From sequence record MK327930.1: a stretch of 64,000 nt of DNA, one strand, 5' to 3'. The notes under the pieces were generated by a model. That model was not told the DNA's origin. It ran no database searches and worked only from the letters and a program-made list of their open reading frames with translations. Of this stretch, positions 13,532 through 33,380 are shown one piece after another. The DNA is from Escherichia phage EdH4. The number at the start of each line of letters is the position of its first letter. Position 1 is the stretch's first letter. Both the position numbers and the translations under genes were made by a program.

Positions 13532-13594
13532 AATACATCACCCTCTGTTAGTTTATGCGTATATTATACACTGCAGTTTTCAGATGTCAACCTC

Positions 13595-13789
13595 TTACAG
13601 ATTGCTCCAATACAATCGGCATTTACATTTTGGGCAATGAGGTTCTTTTATGTAGTAACCGTCAGTCTTTGGAACACTTTTTGGTGCAGTTTTAAGATTG
13701 TACCTGGTAAAACATCGGAAGCAGGTTACCTCTCCCACCTGTTGATCGTTGATCCACTCACCGGAGTAAAGTTCTTTCTTGTTTCTCAT
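13595..13789 (-). CDS. Small zinc-ribbon protein (CxxC...CxxC)
   Basis: Start trimmed to ATG with a GGGAGAG RBS; CFRCF...CPKCKC. Confidence 0.45.
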   Translation of the reverse strand: MRNKKELYSGEWINDQQVGEVTCFRCFTRYNLKTAPKSVPKTDGYYIKEPHCPKCKCRLYWSNL

Positions 13790-14015
13790 AATTCTCTCCC
13801 AAATCCTCTGCAATCTTATACCAAAATCTCCAGCCAGAAAGCACATGGGAACACTTTGAGGATTGAATCTTTACTTGGCTCGGAAGTTCTTTTTCCGTAT
13901 GGTAGGTAGAAATACCCTCCTGCAGATTCGAATATAGCTCCTTCGGTTGTATCTACCACAGCAAGAATTAAGATTTTAGTCTCCACAGTGCTCTCCTCTC
14001 TTAGTTGTCGTGGAA

Positions 14016-14044
14016 ACTATATCACCTCAGAAGATGGTCGTCAA
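14016..14044 (-). promoter_or_regulatory. Sigma70-like promoter TTGACG-N17-TATAGT
   Basis: Immediately downstream of the macrodomain gene stop. Confidence 0.4.
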
Positions 14045-14499
14045 CACTTTTTGTACTCCACCACGACAATATCTATGTCGAAAGTGGCAAGGTTAATAAC
14101 GTCCTCTACGTGTTCCCACTTCAAACCGCCTATGCCGCACCCGATCTTAGGGATGTAGAATGGTAAAGTCGATCCGCTGAATACTTCATTGACTAGCTCA
14201 AAGCCTTTCAGGATTGAGAAATACTCAGCATTAGGTCCTGGGTAGAACTGGGTATATAGATTGATTCCGTAGACAATACCTATCGGAGATAAGTGCTCCC
14301 ATCGGGAGAACGCACCCAGTTTACTTAGGCAACCGTATCTAGTCTCTTTGTCGGCTGACAGTGCTTGAGGAAACTCACGGGCAATCTGTTTTGCTATACC
14401 CTTGCCCATTGTGTGGAAGCAGTTACAACCGTGGATCAGGTGACCAGCACCGCTCTTAAAAAGGGAGATTAAATCTCCCTCTACAGTATCAATAATCAC
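14041..14499 (-). CDS. Macrodomain protein, TARG1/OARD1-like (putative ADP-ribose hydrolase)
   Basis: GAGHLIHGCNCFHTMGKGIAKQIAREF and PKIGCGIGGLKWEHVEDVI match recalled TARG1 blocks (LAHCISEDCRMGAGIA; MPRIGCGLDRLQWENV); start trimmed to a GTG overlapping the upstream stop. Confidence 0.6.
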   Translation of the reverse strand: MIIDTVEGDLISLFKSGAGHLIHGCNCFHTMGKGIAKQIAREFPQALSADKETRYGCLSKLGAFSRWEHLSPIGIVYGINLYTQFYPGPNAEYFSILKGFELVNEVFSGSTLPFYIPKIGCGIGGLKWEHVEDVINLATFDIDIVVVEYKKC

Positions 14500-14914
14500 G
14501 GTAAGCCAGCTCCTCTTCCGCAATTTCAAAAAACTCAGTCCAGCACTGTGGCATATTGGAGTTACCGAAGTGGCTTTCATAGTAAAGGTTCTTACCGCTA
14601 GGAAGGTAGAAATCTGTTACCTCATAAAATCCACAATCGTCGCACTCACCTTCTTCAAACTTGGCCTTAACCTTAATACCGAGGAAGGTGAAAAGTTTAT
14701 GGACATCTTCAGTTTCGAACTCCCAGGGAATGTTGTTTTCCGCATCGGTGTAGAACTGGATCAGCAGACCATTGTCCAGTTTACCAAAATACTCTGTGAA
14801 GTAACTTCCTTCCCAGAAATCTTTATGACAAATAATATCCATGCGTTTGCCCATAATAATGGTGTGAGCGTTTTGGGCATCGTCACGAATCAGTTTTGGC
14901 ATTTCATAGATCAT
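14489..14914 (-). CDS. Hypothetical protein
   Basis: 141-aa ORF, translationally coupled to the macrodomain gene. Confidence 0.55.
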   Translation of the reverse strand: MIYEMPKLIRDDAQNAHTIIMGKRMDIICHKDFWEGSYFTEYFGKLDNGLLIQFYTDAENNIPWEFETEDVHKLFTFLGIKVKAKFEEGECDDCGFYEVTDFYLPSGKNLYYESHFGNSNMPQCWTEFFEIAEEELAYRDY

Positions 14915-14982: not shown

Positions 14983-15180
14983 TTACACAGGAATTGCTTC
15001 AAATAGACCGTTATCTATACCGTCCTTCAGATAGAGATTATATTCTATATCGGTATCTGTATAAAGGGCAGCATCCAGCATTCTATCTGTGAGTCCATCC
15101 ATCGGGTGGAGAAACCACCACCCACGCCAGTCAAAGTAACAGCCTGGTGCATCTTCTCTTACACGGATTCGATAAATCAT
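14983..15180 (-). CDS. Hypothetical protein
   Basis: 65-aa ORF. Confidence 0.45.
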   Translation of the reverse strand: MIYRIRVREDAPGCYFDWRGWWFLHPMDGLTDRMLDAALYTDTDIEYNLYLKDGIDNGLFEAIPV

Positions 15181-15276
15181 GGGCAGTGGCCTCCTGTTAG
15201 TTATACATCCCAGTTTTCTTCGTTCATCACGTCCTCCCGTTCTATGAAGTTATAATTGCACACCTTTCAATCCGTG

Positions 15277-15693
15277 TCAACAGAAAACTTCAACAAATTC
15301 TTCCACAGTTTTAATGTCGTGGGAAAAAGGTTTACGGCTATAACGGGCAATAGCACTATCAACCACCGCCCGGTACTCCAAATCTTCAGAATATTTCATG
15401 AAGCATTGTAGCGTCTCTGGGCAGATAGCTAAATAGCTCCACCACCCCTCTTCAGATTGGTAGTCGAATCCCATACTCTCCAACCATGAAGCATATACGT
15501 CTGCACCCTCAAGCCAGTGAGTGTTTTCATCCAGGAACTTGTTAACAGACATGTGGGCTTCCAAGCATTTATCCAACTCTTTTCCGTTAACCAGCCACGC
15601 ACTGACCGTGGCGCATCCAAGGTCTACAGATTGAGTTGACAGGTTGTATTGGTCATAGTTCTCAGGCTTAACAATGATATCTTCTAATGTCAT
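15277..15693 (-). CDS. Hypothetical protein
   Basis: 138-aa ORF with a GGAG RBS. Confidence 0.55.
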   Translation of the reverse strand: MTLEDIIVKPENYDQYNLSTQSVDLGCATVSAWLVNGKELDKCLEAHMSVNKFLDENTHWLEGADVYASWLESMGFDYQSEEGWWSYLAICPETLQCFMKYSEDLEYRAVVDSAIARYSRKPFSHDIKTVEEFVEVFC

Positions 15694-15712
15694 TTTTCAG
15701 ATCTCCTTATAC

Positions 15713-15740
15713 AAAAATGCCCCACCCTTTCGGGCAGGGC
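15713..15740 (-). terminator. Rho-independent terminator after the SSB-like gene
   Basis: Hairpin gccccaccctttcgggcagggc plus T-run on minus; the same 22-nt hairpin recurs at 25850-25871. Confidence 0.65.
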
Positions 15741-15755
15741 TATGTTAACTAAATG

Positions 15756-16982
15756 TTAAAATGGGATGTCATCATCAAAGACGTACTGTGCTGGATTCTG
15801 ATCCATCGGGTCATCTTCCTCATCATTTACAGGAGGGGCGTCTACAGTGTTTTGCTGTGGAGCGGCTTCCTGTTTGGCAGCTTGAGGTTCTTGATGGTCA
15901 GTGGACTCAGCACCGTTCTTGATCCAATCGTACAACGGCTCAGCCAGATTAGTCAAGACATCTTTTGCTTCTGCAGTAATTGCCACTGCAAAATCATCAA
16001 CTTTCGTTTTCTTGTCAATACGGCGACAAGCGTTCAACACCGCATTACCGACACTGGCACCTACTTCATCTTCAGTTCGGTTGGTGGCTTGAGCATACTC
16101 TTTCTTAAGCTCAATGGTGACTACGTGCAGTGTTTTAGCCACGCCCAGTGGGTCGTCTACCTTAAACCCGCGATCCAGGATGATCTGCAACGCATTGATG
16201 CTATGCCCCGTTTCCACACCGATAGGGTCGTAAGAGGATTTACGCTTGCCACCAGAGCCTTGAGTGCCGTTCTCTGCCTTAGGAGGATAGGCCTTGAAAC
16301 CACTGATAATGTTTCCGGTGTCTTTGTCAACAATGGCTGCAACACGACCACCTACCACCAGGTCTTTAAGCTGCTCATCAGTTACAACCATAGCACCTTC
16401 GCCAATCTTGTGGTCATTAACAGTAACCACGTTGCCAACAATCTGAGTCACATCACCATAGATGCGTAAAACGTCCTGATTGGCATTCTGCTGAGGTTTC
16501 TGCTTCTGGCCTTGTGATTGTGCACCTTGTTGCTGTTTTTGCTGCTGAGTCGCTGCTGGAGCCTCTCCTGCACCCAGCTTAACCATCTTAGCCAGTGAGC
16601 CCTTGTAATAGGTCTTACCGTTATGCTCGTTTGCCTTCAAAGGTATATTTACGATCCATCCTGGCGTTACGGTTTCCCACTTGTCATCAATCTTAACAGA
16701 GACAGAGTCTTGATGACCTGGTTTAAGCAGCTTATCACCCATGCTGATCCAGACTTCTTCACCACCTTGAAGCAGGTTATCAGAGGAATCCAGTTCAGAA
16801 ATCAGTAAAGAGATGGTGTGGCTGGATTCAATTTTCTTACCTTGCCACACAGTGGTTTTAATACCTGTTGTAGGATCAGCACCTTTGATAGGCTTGATGC
16901 TAACACGTTTAATCATGCCGTGAGCCAGTAAAACAGTTTCACGCGGATTCATTGGGTTAGCGAATTGTTGAATAACGCTCAT
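15756..16982 (-). CDS. Single-stranded DNA-binding-like protein with SSB-type acidic C-terminal tail
   Basis: C-terminus ...DDDIPF is identical to the E. coli SSB tip; Q-rich linker QQQKQQQGAQSQGQKQKPQQ; 408 aa. Confidence 0.6.
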   Translation of the reverse strand: MSVIQQFANPMNPRETVLLAHGMIKRVSIKPIKGADPTTGIKTTVWQGKKIESSHTISLLISELDSSDNLLQGGEEVWISMGDKLLKPGHQDSVSVKIDDKWETVTPGWIVNIPLKANEHNGKTYYKGSLAKMVKLGAGEAPAATQQQKQQQGAQSQGQKQKPQQNANQDVLRIYGDVTQIVGNVVTVNDHKIGEGAMVVTDEQLKDLVVGGRVAAIVDKDTGNIISGFKAYPPKAENGTQGSGGKRKSSYDPIGVETGHSINALQIILDRGFKVDDPLGVAKTLHVVTIELKKEYAQATNRTEDEVGASVGNAVLNACRRIDKKTKVDDFAVAITAEAKDVLTNLAEPLYDWIKNGAESTDHQEPQAAKQEAAPQQNTVDAPPVNDEEDDPMDQNPAQYVFDDDIPF

Positions 16983-28815: not shown

Positions 28816-30182
28816 ACGTCCCCCTCTTCTGCTCTGGTTTCAAAATCTTTCCTGACAATTTTGTCTAAGTCAGGAAAGGTTGTATTGTAAAACTCTACTA
28901 CTCGCGGGTCAACAATAATGTCAACTTCTCTTAGTGGACGCAACAAGTTTATTCCTTGTATTGTCTTAACTCGACTCAAAGCAACATACGTCATCCCAGG
29001 AGAGAAAGCTCCGTTCTTTCCAAGGTCCAGGTTGTAACAATCTAGCGTAAGTCCTTGACTTTTATGAGATGTTACGGCGTACCCAGATTTCAGAGGGAGT
29101 TGCTTGTATGATCCAATCACTACCCTCTCTATAAACTTCTCCATCTTCCTTTCTGCAATGTTGTATCTTTGAGATGGCTTATACTCGTTATTCTCCCACA
29201 ACCTTTGTTCTATGTCAACCTGTGTTCCATCTTCAAGCTCCACCACCACCGCCTTGTTCTTAAATTTAACAATTGTGGCACGTGTTCCGTTAACATAATA
29301 AGGTACTTTGTGCGTCGGGTCAACATCGTTGGCGGTTATCATAACTTTCATGCCAATTTTCAACTTCATCTCCTGCTCAACTGGCAAGGTGGAGGGAAAC
29401 TTACCCTTCATTTCACCAGTGTATACCTTCTCTGGGGCGTTGATGGCATCATAGAACCTTCTGTTCACTTCCTCTGCTTGTTTGTTGGTGGCGCAAATTG
29501 TGATAGCGTCTGTTGGTACACCTCCTTTGTAACAGCGAGCATTAAGTTCTGCTACAACCTCTTTTATACGACGACCCTCACGAACACAGTTGAGCATTGT
29601 AGCAAATCGAATAGACTCCTGTCGGAACTGATCTATTAGGGCTATGTTGTGGAGGTCAAGCTCTTTCCAAGATTCGGTATAGCAACACAAGTCCGTATGG
29701 TAGAAGTTGAAGTAGGCTTCCTTCTCCATAGAAGAGACAACAGGAGGTGCCTGGTAAAAATCGCCAAACAATATGACCTGTATGCCTCCGAAAGGTTTGT
29801 CATTTTTTCGAAGGAAGCGGAGTTTCCTATCCATCTCTATAAACTTATCAGCACGGATCATAGAGATTTCATCGATAATTAGGATGGTAAATGCCTTGCT
29901 CTTCAAAGGCTTTGCTGTTTTTGCCCTTATTGCGGTCCAGTCTGACTCCATGCTCACACCTGCTGCAAGATCGAAGGTTCGGTGTGCTGTTGCTCCATTA
30001 ACGTTTAAAGCGGCTACCCCTGTCGGGGCAACCGTTATGCAAGAGTCTCCATACATTGACTGGATCATGTTGATGAGGTACGTCTTCCCACAACCTGCGG
30101 GTCCTGAAACGAAGACATTCTCACCGCTCATGATTGCAACGAGGGCAGCATCTGTGCCTACATCATACTGCCCTTTTTCCAT
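28812..30182 (-). CDS. Dda/RecD/Pif1-like superfamily 1 DNA helicase
   Basis: Walker A VSGPAGCGKT; IIDEISMI; AVTSHKSQGLTLD. Confidence 0.8.
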   Translation of the reverse strand: MEKGQYDVGTDAALVAIMSGENVFVSGPAGCGKTYLINMIQSMYGDSCITVAPTGVAALNVNGATAHRTFDLAAGVSMESDWTAIRAKTAKPLKSKAFTILIIDEISMIRADKFIEMDRKLRFLRKNDKPFGGIQVILFGDFYQAPPVVSSMEKEAYFNFYHTDLCCYTESWKELDLHNIALIDQFRQESIRFATMLNCVREGRRIKEVVAELNARCYKGGVPTDAITICATNKQAEEVNRRFYDAINAPEKVYTGEMKGKFPSTLPVEQEMKLKIGMKVMITANDVDPTHKVPYYVNGTRATIVKFKNKAVVVELEDGTQVDIEQRLWENNEYKPSQRYNIAERKMEKFIERVVIGSYKQLPLKSGYAVTSHKSQGLTLDCYNLDLGKNGAFSPGMTYVALSRVKTIQGINLLRPLREVDIIVDPRVVEFYNTTFPDLDKIVRKDFETRAEEGDV

Positions 30183-31387
30183 TACGCCTCCTCGTAAAGA
30201 ATGTCGATAGTGTTACCATCACGGTCAACCACGTATTCAATCGGATCGCCATCTTTGCGTGATTCCGGTGCTGCTACGATTTCGTAGCGGCATGCACGGC
30301 ACTTAGCACTGTTGTGTTGGTATGGCACACTAACCACATCCGCAGGGTCAACCATAACCATCATTACGGTGCCATAGCCCGCTGCATACTCTTTGCTGGC
30401 GCAGTGCAGGCCATAAGAACACGCAGCTTCCGGATCATCTTCTACAAAGTTACGAGGCATGGATACAAAAGCACCCTGGTATTGTGGAACTTTACCGCTG
30501 TGCCAATCCACCCACTTGCTTCCGTTAAACTGAACCCCCTTATAGCAAATGATTCGACCATCTTCTGCAACCTGGATGTCATTAGCCTGCATGAAATCGT
30601 AGAGCATGTTCACAGATTTTGCAGACGGGTTGCGTAGCAGACGGACAAGGAATTTAACATATCGGTCGTCCAGTGTTCCATCTATATAATCTTCCTCAAT
30701 TTTCTTTGCAATGGTAGATTGCATCTCTACACCGTAGTAATAGAGCTTACCATCTTTCATAATCAGGTTGTCTGCAAGTGTAGTGAACTCATTCTTGCGT
30801 TCCAACCAGACAAGGATTTCACCAATTGCCTCGTCATATTCCTGAACAGAGATATGGTCGAAGACTTTCTGGTAAACTTCCTCACTTTCGCTGCGGCGAA
30901 TTTCAAAAATGCCTTCGTTGCAGGTGATCTGGAGGAGTTCCCCACAAATAACCACCAAAGGCTCGATGTTTCGAGTCTGTTGCTGAGACACACTGCTCAC
31001 CACCTCCAGCACCGGATCTTTGACTTCTACTAAAGGTTCTTCTGACTTGATTGCCACCCCAGTGAACCCCACACCGTGAACAACACACAGTGGGTATACC
31101 ACGCCCCAACGTTTAACGGAACCTTCACCTAAATCTAAGATCATAGCGTACTTACCGTTATCTTCCAGACCGTATCGAAATAAACGGGCCTCTTCGCGGG
31201 TTTCAAAATCCTCACGGGTGTAGCAGACGCTGTCACGGTCAGGATCGAACAACTCTGGGGCACCAACTGCCAGTGTCCAGGTTGTGTCGCCTTTCTCAAT
31301 GGCACATGTGAAACCCTTCTTCTCAAGTTCTGCACGGCGGTCTCGTGCTTCTTTACGGGTTTTGAAATGTTCGTAGATGAAAATCAT
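30182..31387 (-). CDS. rIIB: rIIB-like protein
   Basis: C-terminal half matches recalled T4 rIIB blocks (NPSAKSVNMLYDFMQANDIQVAEDG; SYGLHCASKEY; VDPADVVSVPYQHNSAKCRACRYE); about 100-aa N-terminal extension. Confidence 0.7.
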   Translation of the reverse strand: MIFIYEHFKTRKEARDRRAELEKKGFTCAIEKGDTTWTLAVGAPELFDPDRDSVCYTREDFETREEARLFRYGLEDNGKYAMILDLGEGSVKRWGVVYPLCVVHGVGFTGVAIKSEEPLVEVKDPVLEVVSSVSQQQTRNIEPLVVICGELLQITCNEGIFEIRRSESEEVYQKVFDHISVQEYDEAIGEILVWLERKNEFTTLADNLIMKDGKLYYYGVEMQSTIAKKIEEDYIDGTLDDRYVKFLVRLLRNPSAKSVNMLYDFMQANDIQVAEDGRIICYKGVQFNGSKWVDWHSGKVPQYQGAFVSMPRNFVEDDPEAACSYGLHCASKEYAAGYGTVMMVMVDPADVVSVPYQHNSAKCRACRYEIVAAPESRKDGDPIEYVVDRDGNTIDILYEEA

Positions 31388-31397
31388 CTTGGTCTCC

Positions 31398-33380
31398 TTA
31401 TTTGATGTTATTCTTTGTATCGATCAGCTCACGGTATTCAATCATAGCAGGGGTGTCCCAATATTTCAAGCCCACATGCTTCAAAAGTGGATATTTCTTT
31501 TCCAATCTTGCAATATAGGCCTTCCCGCACTTAACCCGGTTGGCGATTAAGATTTTGGCACGATGATTTAGCTCACTGTGCTTCCACGCGGTGTTACCTT
31601 CCCACTTGTGGAAATGTGGCCGATAATTTCCAAAATCCTGCATGGGGATAATTTTCCCTAATTGTCTATACAAGCTGTCATATGAAGTTTCATTTGCTGC
31701 GCGAGTCAGTAAGAATTTCCAAGCATCCTCTTTCAACAAATGTTCCACATTCTTCTCTGTAACATACTGGCAATCAGGATCAGTCCAAAGCAGACGAGAT
31801 TCTGATACCAAGTACAGATCTTCACCTTCAGGAATCTGGAGTGCAGCACGCACACGGTCATAATTTTGCTGGTAGATGTTACTCAGCTGTCCCAGCCAAC
31901 AACTTCCACGTTGGATATCACCCTCATAAGGAATGCAGTGCTTAATCTTCTTGAACTCTGCCTTAGTAATACGTTCACGACGGAAGTAACCATCCTTCTC
32001 AAGCTTTTTAACCCAATAACCTGGCTCGTAATGAGTTTTTGTTTCACCTTTCTTCGCAGGTCGGCGAGGGAGCTCTGATAACAATTTGACAGTATCTGCA
32101 AAGAACGGATGGTGTGCCGCCTCTTTAAACTCTTTCACCAGATCCGTGTTCCGGCAATAGAAAACGTTGCGTCCGGTGATTTCGCTTAAGTAGTTACACT
32201 TATTTCGGTTATATTTACCATCTCCGTCGTTAAATACAAGGTATACACCTCGTAAGAACTCCGACTTTCCGTAACGAGCATAGCCTATGCGGCCTTTATT
32301 TAAGCCGCCAGCGAAAATTTCACAATCGCCTAAGTCGCCAAGCCCTGTTTCTTCCCAACGGTTCCACATAAAGTTTTTGCCGAAGATGTGTCCGAACACT
32401 CCACTATTCTTCATCATTTCACGTGCTTCTGCGGAGGTTTTTGCCGTCTCCAGTTCTGCAATAACTTCTGCCCCGCGAAGACGTATACCTTCTTTGACAA
32501 AGGCCTCCAGGCGATCCTGGAATCCACCGTCGTCATGGCCCTCTATGGTCCATTCACGCCCAGGGTTAATATTGCAATCCCCAATAGGAATTTCCACGCA
32601 GATTGCAGGGTAATCGGTCAATGTCTCCAGGAACTTGGAGCGGTAAGGTTGGTGACCCATCACAACACGGCTCTCATCAGAACTGGTATAACCTTTCAGG
32701 ATGGTCATTTTCCAGCCATCCTTCTCGTAATGATACTGTGCCTCAACCTTGTCACCTTCTAACATCTTACTGGTCATAGGATCGGTGACGATGAACGGAA
32801 ACTTCGCATAGCGTAAGCACGATGCAATAGCAGTGCGATATTTCAGGACATGCTCTTTCTTAACATGGAACTGAACTTTTACCCCGTTGTGCTCTTCAGT
32901 CTTCCGCTCACGGATCTTGGTAACGTTTGGGATACCCTGATCCAAGAACAATAGATATGTGCTTTCAACACCATTGTGCACACTGATAACATCGAAAGTG
33001 TCCACCATACTGAACGGAGCCTTTGAACCAACACCTTTATTACCTACCAGAGCGTTGCTGTTGCGCTTGGTTGACTCCCCGAGATTCATGAAAGTGTTGC
33101 GGACCATCTCTTCTGACATGCCCAATCCAACGTCCTGCACAAAGAAGTATGGTTCAAGGTCTGTAGGAGAGTGAATGATGATCGGTACATCACCCCGTCC
33201 AGACTCAACATGGGAGTCCACAGCATTGAAGATTGGTTCACGGCAGCTTGCCAGCACCTTATCTTCGTAAATCCCTTTAATGATTAGCCCAAAAGTCTCT
33301 TTGTTCAGAGAAATTGAGCCCCTGGTGACCTCCATATTTCCGGTCAGCACTGCTTTAGTTTCATTACTGTTTACAATCAT
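31398..33380 (-). CDS. rIIA: rIIA-like protein (GHKL-type ATPase fold)
   Basis: Bergerat motifs REPIFNAVDSH, VQDVGLGMS, GNKGVGSKAPFSMVDTF parallel the T4 rIIA N-terminus. Confidence 0.75.
   Translation of the reverse strand: MIVNSNETKAVLTGNMEVTRGSISLNKETFGLIIKGIYEDKVLASCREPIFNAVDSHVESGRGDVPIIIHSPTDLEPYFFVQDVGLGMSEEMVRNTFMNLGESTKRNSNALVGNKGVGSKAPFSMVDTFDVISVHNGVESTYLLFLDQGIPNVTKIRERKTEEHNGVKVQFHVKKEHVLKYRTAIASCLRYAKFPFIVTDPMTSKMLEGDKVEAQYHYEKDGWKMTILKGYTSSDESRVVMGHQPYRSKFLETLTDYPAICVEIPIGDCNINPGREWTIEGHDDGGFQDRLEAFVKEGIRLRGAEVIAELETAKTSAEAREMMKNSGVFGHIFGKNFMWNRWEETGLGDLGDCEIFAGGLNKGRIGYARYGKSEFLRGVYLVFNDGDGKYNRNKCNYLSEITGRNVFYCRNTDLVKEFKEAAHHPFFADTVKLLSELPRRPAKKGETKTHYEPGYWVKKLEKDGYFRRERITKAEFKKIKHCIPYEGDIQRGSCWLGQLSNIYQQNYDRVRAALQIPEGEDLYLVSESRLLWTDPDCQYVTEKNVEHLLKEDAWKFLLTRAANETSYDSLYRQLGKIIPMQDFGNYRPHFHKWEGNTAWKHSELNHRAKILIANRVKCGKAYIARLEKKYPLLKHVGLKYWDTPAMIEYRELIDTKNNIK

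What the first reader, a model, noticed from the sequence alone, without database searches (positions are those of the whole stretch)
14041..14499. Phage-encoded TARG1/OARD1-like macrodomain: candidate counter-defence against ADP-ribosylation
The ORF carries two blocks that I recognise from the human TARG1 (C6orf130/OARD1) macrodomain: GAGHLIHGCNCFHTMGKGIAKQIAREF (compare SLAHCISEDCRMGAGIA) and PKIGCGIGGLKWEHVEDVINLATFDIDIVVVEY (compare MPRIGCGLDRLQWENV...DIKITVYTL). Macrodomains remove ADP-ribose from proteins or nucleic acids. A phage copy could reverse host ADP-ribosylation used as immunity (for example DarT-type DNA ADP-ribosylation) or destroy ADP-ribose-derived signals. The gene sits in a block of unknown genes with its own promoter.
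Basis: partly seen in the sequence, partly recalled or inferred. Interest (0 to 1): 0.78.

Follow-up and report, generated by a model that had tools for sequence, protein, structure and literature searches.

The report
Phage macrodomain, T4 AdfM (Tk.4) relative
This is a real, already annotated macrodomain gene of an rV5-like E. coli phage, and its closest studied relative is the T4 protein Tk.4/AdfM that lets T4 escape the DarTG2 DNA-ADP-ribosylating defence, so it is a new member of a recently described kind rather than a new kind of thing.

Summary
The ORF is real: minus strand, 14499→14041, GTG start, 152 aa. Both quoted motifs are present and align with human TARG1.

It is a high-confidence macrodomain of the TARG1/DarG/Poa1p/SCO6735 class:
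- Pfam Macro scores above its cutoff.
- The PADLOC DarG model gives E = 2.9e-13.
- The AlphaFold2 model has pLDDT 97.

The window is a Vequintavirus (rV5-like) genome, and public records already label this gene "macro domain protein".

The closest characterised relative is T4 Tk.4 (39% identity, E = 3e-41). A 2025 preprint named it AdfM because its deletion sensitises T4 to DarTG2. A 70%-identical copy sits at the tk.4 locus of Krischvirus GEC-3S.

The protein is not a TARG1 or DarG orthologue. The catalytic Lys is an invariant Gln (Q84), TARG1 Asp125 is Gly, and there is no DarT-binding domain. The Gln matches SCO6735, a proven thymidine-ADP-ribose DNA hydrolase.

The main rival is an ADPR-1''-phosphate phosphatase like phage Adpp (33-35% identity). 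That is less likely because no NARP1 genes are present and the sequence signatures differ.

The "own promoter" claim fails: the gene overlaps its upstream ORF by 11 nt.

The Bas54 orthologue (83% identity) is dispensable on E. coli K-12.

The parts
14041..14499 (-). Macrodomain CDS (152 aa plus stop; GTG start). Member of the T4 Tk.4/AdfM-type phage macrodomain clade.
14422..14433 (-). Codons for H23-G-C-N26 (HGCN). N26 corresponds to DarG N22 and SCO6735 N27; H23 corresponds to SCO6735 H24 and Poa1p H23.
   Evidence: Alignment A2. Poa1p alignment. G24 and N26 are invariant and H23 is at least 90% conserved in 68 homologues. SCO6735 and DarG residue roles come from papers.
14248..14262 (-). 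Codons for N80-L-Y-T-Q84. Q84 occupies the position of the catalytic Lys of DarG (K80), TARG1 (K84) and PhiKZ AdfM (K78), and of the essential Gln85 of SCO6735.
   Evidence: alignments. (Q84 invariant in 68 sequences). (SCO6735 Q85A/E inactive). (DarG K80, PhiKZ K78).
14125..14142 (-). Codons for G120-C-G-I-G-G125, the diphosphate-binding glycine loop. G124 replaces TARG1 Asp125.
14510..14515 (-). GAGGAG Shine-Dalgarno-like hexamer 10 nt upstream of the GTG start, inside the upstream ORF.
   Evidence: Read directly from the sequence; inference.
14489..14914 (-). Upstream ORF (141 aa, phrog_8157, unknown function). Its last 11 nt overlap the macro gene start, so the two are probably co-transcribed and translationally coupled. 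It is not a conserved partner outside Vequintavirus.
   Evidence: The same 426-nt/459-nt pair with an 11-nt overlap occurs in Bas54. In GEC-3S and T4 the upstream gene is vs instead.
14983..15180 (-). 65-aa ORF (phrog_9903, unknown function), probably the first gene of the same transcription unit.
15252..15280 (-). Sigma-70-like promoter candidate (TTGACA-17-AATTAT with TG). It is the nearest intergenic one upstream of the macro gene, and its -35 overlaps the stop codon of ORF 15277..15693.
   Evidence: Consensus match only.
14016..14044 (-). Sigma-70-like promoter candidate (TTGACG-17-TATAGT with TG). Its -35 overlaps the macro gene's stop codon. It would drive the downstream 56-aa gene (13816..13986), not the macro gene.

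Best explanation
The gene encodes a stand-alone, single-domain ADP-ribosyl hydrolase of the TARG1/DarG/SCO6735 ('ALC1-like') macrodomain class. It belongs to the phage clade typified by T4 Tk.4 (AdfM).

Most likely mechanism:
1. The gene is expressed with neighbouring small genes of the replication-proximal arm.
2. The protein binds ADP-ribose attached by a host DarT2-type toxin to thymidine in single-stranded phage DNA.
3. It hydrolyses the base-ribose bond, so phage replication can proceed in DarTG2-carrying hosts.

It acts purely as an orphan 'antitoxin enzyme', because it lacks DarG's DarT-binding domain. Catalysis does not use the Lys of DarG/TARG1. An invariant Gln (Q84), with H23 and N26, positions the substrate for water attack, as proposed for SCO6735.

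Shown here: the fold, the class, the pocket and motif conservation, homology and clade placement with Tk.4, the absence of a DarT-binding domain and of NARP1 genes, and dispensability of the 83%-identical Bas54 orthologue on K-12.

Inferred: the substrate (dT-ADPr DNA), the defence countered (DarTG2), the Gln-based chemistry and the timing of expression.
For: Class:
- Pfam Macro is above its cutoff.
- PADLOC DarG E = 2.9e-13 and NCBIfam antitoxin_DarG E = 2.4e-12, both over the macrodomain part only.
- The family profile against PDB gives DarG 2.3e-17, BT1257 7e-17, SCO6735 1e-16 and TARG1 1.7e-15.
- The AF2 model has pLDDT 97.1 and pTM 0.91.
- Foldseek top hits are TARG1, Poa1p and DarG.

Link to AdfM:
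- 39% identity and E = 3e-41 to T4 Tk.4 over the full length; 44% and E = 3e-42 to a T4-like tk.4.
- A 69.5%-identical copy occupies the vs-tk locus of Krischvirus GEC-3S, the position of tk.4.
- An NJ clade of window + T4 + GEC-3S (+ Kuttervirus) that excludes NARP1-associated and cellular macrodomains appears in 74% and 71% of 500 bootstraps.
- T4 tk.4 was the single HIDEN-SEQ hit on DarTG2 hosts, and its clean deletion sensitises T4.
- PhiKZ AdfM removes DarT2-made ADP-ribose from DNA in vitro.

Chemistry:
- Q84 is invariant in 68 homologues and aligns with SCO6735 Gln85.
- Mutating SCO6735 Gln85 abolishes hydrolysis of thymidine-linked ADPr-DNA, and SCO6735 protects against DarT.
- The equivalents of SCO6735 H24, N27 and K34 are also present.

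Accessory status: bas54_0092 (83% identical) took insertions at 31 of 31 TA sites and was classed 'Non-essential' on K-12.

Context: no Adps/Namat, NADAR or ART domain was found among 76 window ORFs. None is annotated in the rest of a close relative's genome.
Against: - No experiment exists on this protein or on any Vequintavirus orthologue against DarTG2.
- The T4 evidence is genetic and comes from a preprint; no in vitro activity is reported for Tk.4.
- At 39% identity, substrate specificity may differ.
- The same broad phage family includes Adpp, a proven ADPR-1''-phosphate phosphatase. It is also Gln-type and 33-35% identical to the window protein.
- Bootstrap support separating the two clades is only 71-74%, from a simple NJ analysis of about 147 columns.
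- Active-site residues (H23, T30, N26, Q84) fit either activity, and Poa1p also has H23/S30.
- Enzymes of this class are known to be promiscuous.
Confidence: 0.6

Rival explanations
1. It is an ADPR-1''-phosphate phosphatase like phage Adpp or yeast Poa1p. It would convert the ADPR-1''-P made by RES-domain (aRES) NAD+ phosphorolysis, or another small ADP-ribose derivative such as O-acetyl-ADPR, into ADP-ribose.
For: - PHROG 335 and RefSeq name the family 'phosphatase'.
- Poa1p is among the top structural matches, and Poa1p H23/S30 align with H23/T30.
- Vibrio phage Gary Adpp, encoded between Adps and Namat, dephosphorylates ADPR-1P and is needed to defeat aRES.
- Its 88%-identical Ceto orthologue is 35% identical to the window protein, E = 6e-22.
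- Adpp is also Gln-type.
Against: - Adpp works by feeding NARP1. No Adps or Namat gene is found in the window or annotated in the rest of a close relative's genome, so ADPR alone would not restore NAD+.
- NARP1-associated macrodomains (Gary, Ceto, PA10) carry HQxNC, YGQY plus an insertion, and GCGLAG. The window protein has the T4-type HGCNC, YTQF-PGPN and GCGIGG.
- The window protein groups with T4 Tk.4 in 71-74% of bootstraps.
- T4, which also lacks a NARP1-adjacent context, needs Tk.4 against DarTG2.
Confidence: 0.17
2. It reverses ADP-ribosylation of protein or RNA rather than DNA. The modification could be made by another host defence ADP-ribosyltransferase, or by the phage's own NAD+-using enzymes; relatives encode a sirtuin-domain protein. 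Alternatively it deacetylates the O-acetyl-ADP-ribose those enzymes produce.
For: - TARG1-class enzymes hydrolyse protein Glu/Asp-ADPr and O-acetyl-ADPR (established knowledge). SCO6735 also acts on ADP-ribosylated PARP1.
- Close relatives encode a Sir2/sirtuin-domain protein next to a nucleotide pyrophosphohydrolase (APECc02 gp139-140, bas54_0207).
Against: - The sirtuin gene is about 50 kb away and not in the window, so there is no genetic linkage.
- T4 and Krischvirus carry the macrodomain without that sirtuin context.
- The only phenotype known for a clade member is DarTG2-specific: tk.4 was the single hit.
Confidence: 0.15
3. It binds or degrades ADP-ribose-derived immune signals (Thoeris-type cyclic ADPR or His-ADPR), acting as a sponge or signal hydrolase.
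Against: - No homologue in this clade has such an activity reported in the papers read.
- Invariance of the catalytic-position Gln and of the HGCN motif points to an enzyme of the SCO6735/DarG kind.
Confidence: 0.05

Closest known systems
T4 Tk.4 = AdfM (anti-DarT factor Macrodomain; NP_049723; Humolli et al., bioRxiv 10.1101/2025.11.20.689424)
   Same: Same length and single-domain architecture. 39% identity over the full length (E = 3e-41). Shared motifs HGCNCFHTMG, NLYTQF-PGPN and the glycine loop. Same NJ clade. A 70%-identical intermediate sits at the tk.4 locus of Krischvirus GEC-3S. Both are dispensable on K-12.
   Different: Different phage family (Vequintavirinae against Straboviridae) and different neighbours: an unknown 141-aa ORF rather than vs/tk.3. 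The glycine loop is GCGIGGL here and GAGIGKG in T4. Anti-DarTG2 activity has not been tested for the rV5-type protein.
SCO6735 (Streptomyces coelicolor orphan macrodomain; PDB 5E3B)
   Same: Same class. Gln at the catalytic position (Q84 against Q85). The H/N/K equivalents (H23, N26, K33 against H24, N27, K34) are present. It is an orphan enzyme without a DarT-binding domain, and it is a proven thymidine-ADPr DNA hydrolase that protects from DarT.
   Different: Only about 27% identity. SCO6735 has a longer loop after the Gln, including K89, and GCGLAGG. It is cellular, basic (pI 9.7 against 5.9) and not a phage counter-defence.
DarG antitoxin macrodomain (M. tuberculosis 5M3I, T. aquaticus 5M31/5M3E)
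   Different: The catalytic K80 is replaced by Gln. There is no C-terminal DarT-binding domain (152 aa; 46.8 bits against the 250-bit equivalog cutoff). There is no adjacent darT.
PhiKZ gp104 = AdfM of chimalliviruses (Cell Rep 2026, PMC13309987)
   Same: A phage-encoded, stand-alone macrodomain of the same class. Shown to remove DarT2-made ADP-ribose from DNA and to counter DarTG2.
   Different: Only 20% identity (pairwise E = 1e-4). It is Lys-type (K78) and groups with bacterial DarG in 94% of bootstraps, not with the window protein. It is imported into the phage nucleus. The two proteins called AdfM are separate lineages.
Adpp of NARP1-AP operons (Vibrio phage Gary; Osterman et al., bioRxiv 10.64898/2026.01.28.702374)
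   Same: A phage macrodomain of the same Gln-type family, 33-35% identical, with the same PHROG/RefSeq label 'phosphatase'.
   Different: Encoded between Adps and Namat and functional only with them. Its signatures are HQCNC, YGQYH plus a 6-7-residue insertion, and GCGLAGG. The window genome has no NARP1.
Human TARG1/OARD1 (PDB 4J5R/4J5S)
   Same: Top Foldseek match (E = 7.6e-10, TM 0.78/0.84). Same size.
   Different: The catalytic dyad Lys84/Asp125 is Gln84/Gly124 here. About 26% identity. TARG1 is a eukaryotic protein-ADPr hydrolase.

Membership tests
Macro domain (Pfam PF01661) | Profile score above the curated gathering threshold | tested here: met
   28 bits against a 22-bit cutoff, E = 2.2e-6. 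Precomputed PF01661 on most close homologues.
Macro domain (Pfam PF01661) | Three-layer alpha/beta/alpha macro fold with an ADP-ribose pocket (N-terminal G-D, two glycine-rich loops) | tested here: met
TARG1/DarG/Poa1p/SCO6735 ('ALC1-like') macrodomain class | Nearest sequence and structural neighbours are members of this class, separated from the MacroD, viral X-domain and PARG classes | tested here: met
TARG1/OARD1 orthologues | Catalytic Lys84-Asp125 dyad | tested here: not met
   Gln84 and Gly124 at the aligned positions. TARG1 sequence verified. Role of the dyad as described.
DarG antitoxin (NCBIfam NF048014 equivalog) | Full-length match above the curated cutoff, including the C-terminal DarT-binding domain | tested here: not met
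   46.8 bits against a 250-bit cutoff. Only profile positions 3-141 of 338 are matched, and the protein is 152 aa.
DarG antitoxin (NCBIfam NF048014 equivalog) | Catalytic Lys80 and Asn22 in the macrodomain | tested here: not met
   The Asn is conserved (N26), but Lys80 is replaced by the invariant Gln84.
DarG antitoxin (NCBIfam NF048014 equivalog) | Encoded next to a darT toxin gene | tested here: not met
   Neighbours are small phage ORFs of unknown function. No ART domain was found among 76 window ORFs.
AdfM, T4 Tk.4 type | Full-length homology and clade membership with T4 Tk.4 | tested here: met
   39% identity and E = 3e-41; 44% and E = 3e-42 to UFV-AREG1 tk.4. 69.5% to the positional tk.4 of GEC-3S. 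Clade bootstrap is 74% and 71%, which is moderate.
AdfM, T4 Tk.4 type | Gene required for phage growth on DarTG2-expressing hosts and dispensable otherwise | not testable with these tools
   Only the second half is known for a close orthologue: bas54_0092 (83% identity) is non-essential on K-12, with 31 of 31 TA sites hit. No DarTG2 challenge of a Vequintavirus was found.
AdfM, T4 Tk.4 type | [quoted passage not shown] | not testable with these tools
   Inferred from SCO6735 (Gln-type) and PhiKZ AdfM. Not reported even for T4 Tk.4.
AdfM, PhiKZ gp104 type | DarG-like Lys-type macrodomain (N23/K78) grouping with bacterial DarG2 | tested here: not met
   20% identity and E = 1e-4. Gln in place of the Lys. 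PhiKZ gp104 groups with DarG in 94% of bootstraps, apart from the window protein.
Adpp (NARP1-AP ADPR-1''-P phosphatase) | Encoded within or next to an Adps-Namat (NARP1) operon | tested here: not met
   No PRPS-like or NAMPT-like domain among 76 window ORFs. None annotated in the remainder of the close relative APECc02. Compare Ceto, Gary and PA10.
Adpp (NARP1-AP ADPR-1''-P phosphatase) | Sequence signature and clade of NARP1-associated macrodomains | tested here: inconclusive
   33-35% identity, E = 6e-22. The signatures differ (HQ/YGQY+insertion/GCGLAG against HG/YTQF/GCGIGG). However, the NARP1-associated sequences are not robustly monophyletic (14-41%), and the separation has only 71-74% support.
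Adpp (NARP1-AP ADPR-1''-P phosphatase) | Dephosphorylates ADPR-1''-phosphate | not testable with these tools
   Needs an enzyme assay. The Poa1p-like H23/T30 residues are compatible with it.
SCO6735-type Gln macrodomain hydrolases | Gln at the catalytic-Lys position, plus the His/Asn/Lys residues probed by mutagenesis (H24, N27, K34, Q85) | tested here: met
   H23, N26, K33 and Q84 align with them (numbering checked against the 5E3B alignment). K89 has no counterpart because the loop is shorter here.

The most novel reading that the evidence does not exclude
The T4/rV5-type phage macrodomains may form a lysine-less, Gln-based lineage that the AdfM literature has not remarked on. One small enzyme could hydrolyse both thymidine-linked ADP-ribose on DNA and small ADP-ribose derivatives such as ADPR-1''-phosphate. 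A single 152-aa protein would then blunt two chemically different NAD+-based immune strategies: DarTG2 and RES-type NAD+ phosphorolysis or related systems. The two allelic forms seen within Vequintavirus (about 83% against at least 95% identity, differing mainly in residues 57-75) might reflect adaptation to different host systems.
Probability: 0.15. Interest if true: 0.55.

Novelty: new member of a known kind. Interest (0 to 1): 0.3.

Why it matters
Phages of the rV5 group are broad-host-range E. coli and O157 phages used in therapy and biocontrol collections. Knowing which host defences they can neutralise helps predict host range.

If the assignment is right, Vequintavirus phages carry a ready-made answer to DarTG2, and tblastn finds relatives of this family in 2,771 of 50,697 phage records.

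The one point of wider mechanistic interest concerns catalysis. The T4-type AdfM clade, this protein included, has Gln where DarG, TARG1 and PhiKZ AdfM have the catalytic Lys. That ties it to the poorly understood SCO6735 mechanism, and it means two unrelated macrodomain lineages were recruited by phages for the same job.

The homology to Adpp also shows that 'phage macrodomain' annotations cannot be read as one function.

Tried and rejected
- **DarG orthologue:** rejected. Only the macrodomain part matches, the score is far below the equivalog cutoff, there is no darT neighbour, and the catalytic Lys is absent.
- **True TARG1 orthologue:** rejected, because the catalytic dyad is absent.
- **Own promoter:** rejected.
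- **Longer 179-aa ORF from ATG 14580:** rejected. Homologues and public annotation start at the GTG.
- **Upstream 141-aa ORF as a conserved partner:** rejected. It is replaced by vs in T4 and GEC-3S.
- **A second ADP-ribose-related gene in the window (NADAR/AdfN, ART, Adps, Namat):** none found by Pfam scan of 76 ORFs at E <= 1e-4. Only families reaching that threshold are listed, and small or divergent proteins could be missed.
- **Net charge/pI as a proxy for DNA binding:** uninformative. The proven DNA enzyme PhiKZ AdfM is as acidic as the window protein.
- **Phylogeny:** the first script timed out. A first bootstrap run had undefined distances for very divergent pairs and was repeated with a capped distance. 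It is a simple NJ analysis on about 147 columns and gives only moderate support.
- **Literature:**
  - The search for 'AdfM' alone was swamped by journal DOIs.
  - The LeRoux 2022 DarTG paper is not held.
  - No paper links rV5 with a macro domain.
  - No DarTG2 test of any Vequintavirus was found.
- **Not run:** the exhaustive representative-protein search, judged not decisive.
Full report
**Observation**

The finding's coordinates delimit a real coding sequence on the minus strand. It starts at GTG 14499-14497 and stops at TGA 14043-14041, giving 152 codons plus the stop. The mechanical ORF runs on to an ATG at 14580. Three things fix the GTG start: homologues are 150-153 aa and begin MI(I/V)xx(I/V)xGD, the public CDS HdK5_00038 has the same 459 nt, and a GAGGAG lies 10 nt upstream.

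**Source of the window**

The window is a Vequintavirus (rV5-like) E. coli phage. The 3-kb surroundings are 98.9% identical to phage vB_Eco_Alma, and 114 of 119 matching records carry the whole region. Several of those records already call this gene 'macro domain protein' or 'phage T4-like protein ... with Macro domain, Poa1p_like family'.

**What the protein is**

Sequence evidence:
- Pfam Macro passes its gathering score (28 against 22 bits, E = 2.2e-6).
- PHROG 335 ('phosphatase') matches at E = 2e-59.
- The PADLOC DarG model matches at E = 2.9e-13.
- NCBIfam antitoxin_DarG matches at E = 2.4e-12, but only over the macrodomain third of that model and far below its cutoff (46.8 against 250 bits).
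- A profile of 68 homologues hits only one class of solved macrodomains: M. tuberculosis DarG (2.3e-17), BT1257, SCO6735 (1e-16), T. aquaticus DarG, human TARG1 (1.7e-15) and yeast Poa1p.

Structural evidence:
- The AlphaFold2 model is very confident (pLDDT 97.1, pTM 0.91).
- Foldseek ranks TARG1 first (E = 7.6e-10, TM 0.78/0.84), followed by Poa1p and DarG.

The ADP-ribose pocket motifs are conserved. G8, G24, N26, G34, A36, N80, Q84, P117 and G120 are invariant across the 68 sequences.

**Active site**

The protein is not TARG1-like or DarG-like in catalysis. At the position of the catalytic lysine (TARG1 K84, DarG K80, PhiKZ AdfM K78) it has Gln84. TARG1 Asp125 is Gly124 here. Gln84 lies in the motif NLYTQ and is invariant in all 68 homologues, including T4 Tk.4.

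The same Gln is found in SCO6735 and BT1257. In SCO6735, Gln85 is essential, the enzyme efficiently hydrolyses thymidine-linked ADP-ribose on DNA, and it protects against DarT. The authors proposed a water-mediated mechanism for it (PMC9411070). The other SCO6735 residues probed by mutagenesis (H24, N27, K34) correspond to H23, N26 and K33 here.

The protein is a bare macrodomain without DarG's DarT-binding domain. No darT-like or other ADP-ribose-related gene is nearby.

**Closest characterised relatives**

T4 Tk.4 is 39% identical over its whole length (E = 3e-41). The tk.4 of a T4-like phage is 44% identical. Krischvirus GEC-3S carries a 69.5%-identical copy exactly at the vs-tk locus where tk.4 sits in T4. 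That bridges the rV5-type and T4-type genes and implies exchange between unrelated myoviruses.

A 2025 preprint found tk.4 as the single transposon-sequencing hit when T4 was grown on DarTG2-expressing cells. It showed that a clean deletion sensitises T4 to DarTG2, and it named the gene adfM (10.1101/2025.11.20.689424). That text does not mention the missing lysine.

Independently, PhiKZ gp104 was also named AdfM and was shown to remove DarT2-made ADP-ribose from DNA (PMC13309987). That protein is a different lineage. It is 20% identical to the window protein, is Lys-type, and groups with bacterial DarG in 94% of bootstraps.

**A second demonstrated function in the family**

In Vibrio phages Ceto and Gary, a homologue lies between a PRPS-like gene and a NAMPT-like gene. 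A 2026 preprint shows that this protein, Adpp, dephosphorylates ADPR-1''-phosphate. This lets the NARP1 pathway rebuild NAD+ after attack by RES-domain (aRES) defence (10.64898/2026.01.28.702374).

The Ceto orthologue is 88% identical to Gary Adpp and 35% identical to the window protein (E = 6e-22). It is also Gln-type.

Three observations favour the AdfM reading for the window gene:
1. No Adps or Namat is found among 76 window ORFs, and none is annotated in the rest of the close relative APECc02. Adpp's product would therefore have no pathway to feed.
2. NARP1-associated macrodomains from two phage lineages (Gary/Ceto and Pakpunavirus PA10) share HQxNC, YGQY plus an insertion, and GCGLAG. The window protein, T4, GEC-3S and a Kuttervirus copy that is not next to NARP1 share HGCNC, YTQF-PGPN and, except T4 itself, GCGI(G/A)G.
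3. The window protein groups with T4 Tk.4 to the exclusion of the NARP1-associated and cellular proteins in 74% and 71% of NJ bootstraps.

This support is moderate, and enzymes of this class are promiscuous. The Adpp-like activity therefore remains a live rival.

**Direct data on a close orthologue**

Bas54 (phage MaxBurger) has the same gene pair: a 426-nt ORF overlapping a 459-nt ORF by 11 nt. Its bas54_0092 is 83% identical to the window protein. In the HIDEN-SEQ reference library on E. coli K-12, all 31 TA sites in bas54_0092 carried insertions and the gene was classed 'Non-essential'. The one conditional comparison stored shows no effect (log2FC 0.42, q = 1). That is the behaviour expected of an accessory or anti-defence gene. 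No experiment challenging a Vequintavirus with DarTG2 was found.

**Context and expression**

The gene lies in the leftward arm that also contains the replication genes. DNA polymerase, primase/helicase, a helicase and a methylase sit about 6-20 kb upstream on the same strand. The gene itself is among small ORFs that match only unknown-function PHROGs.

It has no promoter of its own. The 11-nt overlap with ORF 14489..14914 suggests coupled translation. The nearest intergenic sigma-70-like site on the strand is at 15280..15252, downstream of a terminator-like hairpin at 15740..15719. The good match at 14044..14016 overlaps the macro stop codon and faces the next gene. These are consensus matches only.

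**Verdict**

The gene is already annotated as a macrodomain, and its function is now known for relatives. I file it as a new, untested member of the T4 Tk.4/AdfM kind.

- Probability that it is an ADP-ribose-processing macrodomain enzyme: about 0.97.
- Probability that its main role is reversing DarT2-type DNA ADP-ribosylation: about 0.6.
- Residual interest lies in the Gln-for-Lys active site shared with SCO6735 and in the unresolved AdfM-versus-Adpp specificity.

Noticed in passing
window 15756..16982 (-): The 408-aa protein three genes upstream has a Gln-rich middle and ends in ...VFDDDIPF. From my own knowledge, that is the C-terminal tip motif of E. coli SSB (DFDDDIPF). Pfam finds nothing and its PHROG is of unknown function. 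Its Bas54 counterpart by position, bas54_0087, is 'Essential' (8 of 57 TA sites hit). It is probably the phage ssDNA-binding protein or an SSB-tail mimic.
   Followed up: partly
window 14041..14047 and 15277..15283 (-): In both places the stop codon of a gene is embedded in the -35 hexamer of the next promoter-like site (..TGT TGA C.. = TGTTGAC). This suggests a recurring compact gene-end/promoter design in this arm.
   Followed up: partly
window 13563..13590 (-): A perfect sigma-70 consensus site, TTGACA-16-TATAAT (12/12), lies just after the stop of ORF 13595..13846. Overall the region has 21 promoter-like sites against 12.4 ± 3.3 expected.
   Followed up: no
window ~15694..15755 (between ORFs 15277..15693 and 15756..16982): Some relatives (rV5_ev168, Bas54 and others) carry a 624-nt endonuclease VII-like homing endonuclease gene at this spot. 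The window has only a terminator-like hairpin there (15719..15740).
   Followed up: partly
window 14041..14499 (-), compared with L014:1395-1850 and L007:3001-3453: The macro gene has two allelic forms within Vequintavirus: at least 95% or about 83% protein identity. The substitutions in the Bas54 comparison are densest in residues 57-75. A 69.5%-identical copy sits at the tk.4 locus of the unrelated Krischvirus GEC-3S. This suggests horizontal exchange and possibly diversifying pressure.
   Followed up: partly
L008:3135-6149, L011:1129-4159, L013:969-4480: Macrodomains encoded in or beside NARP1 (Adps/Namat) operons in Vibrio phages Ceto and Gary and in Pseudomonas phage PA10 share HQxNC, YGQY plus an insertion, and GCGLAG. 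This differs from the T4/rV5 type (HGCNC, YTQF-PGPN). It is a possible sequence rule for telling Adpp from AdfM.
   Followed up: partly
L009:36474-40326 (APECc02, outside the window); Bas54 bas54_0206-0211: Close relatives encode a sirtuin-domain protein next to a nucleotide pyrophosphohydrolase, and an RNA ligase / polynucleotide kinase / phosphoesterase trio. A similar RNA-ligase, ATPase and phosphoesterase set lies directly upstream of the NARP1-AP operon in Vibrio phage Ceto.
   Followed up: no
window 13595..13846 (-): A small protein with a Phage_zn_bind_2 domain (PF23903, E = 1.6e-22). Relatives annotate a shorter 64-aa version.
   Followed up: no
window 30182..33380 (-): By position and length, the 401-aa and 660-aa ORFs correspond to the genes that the Bas54 table labels rIIB and rIIA ('membrane integrity protector'). 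HdK5 calls them hypothetical.
   Followed up: no
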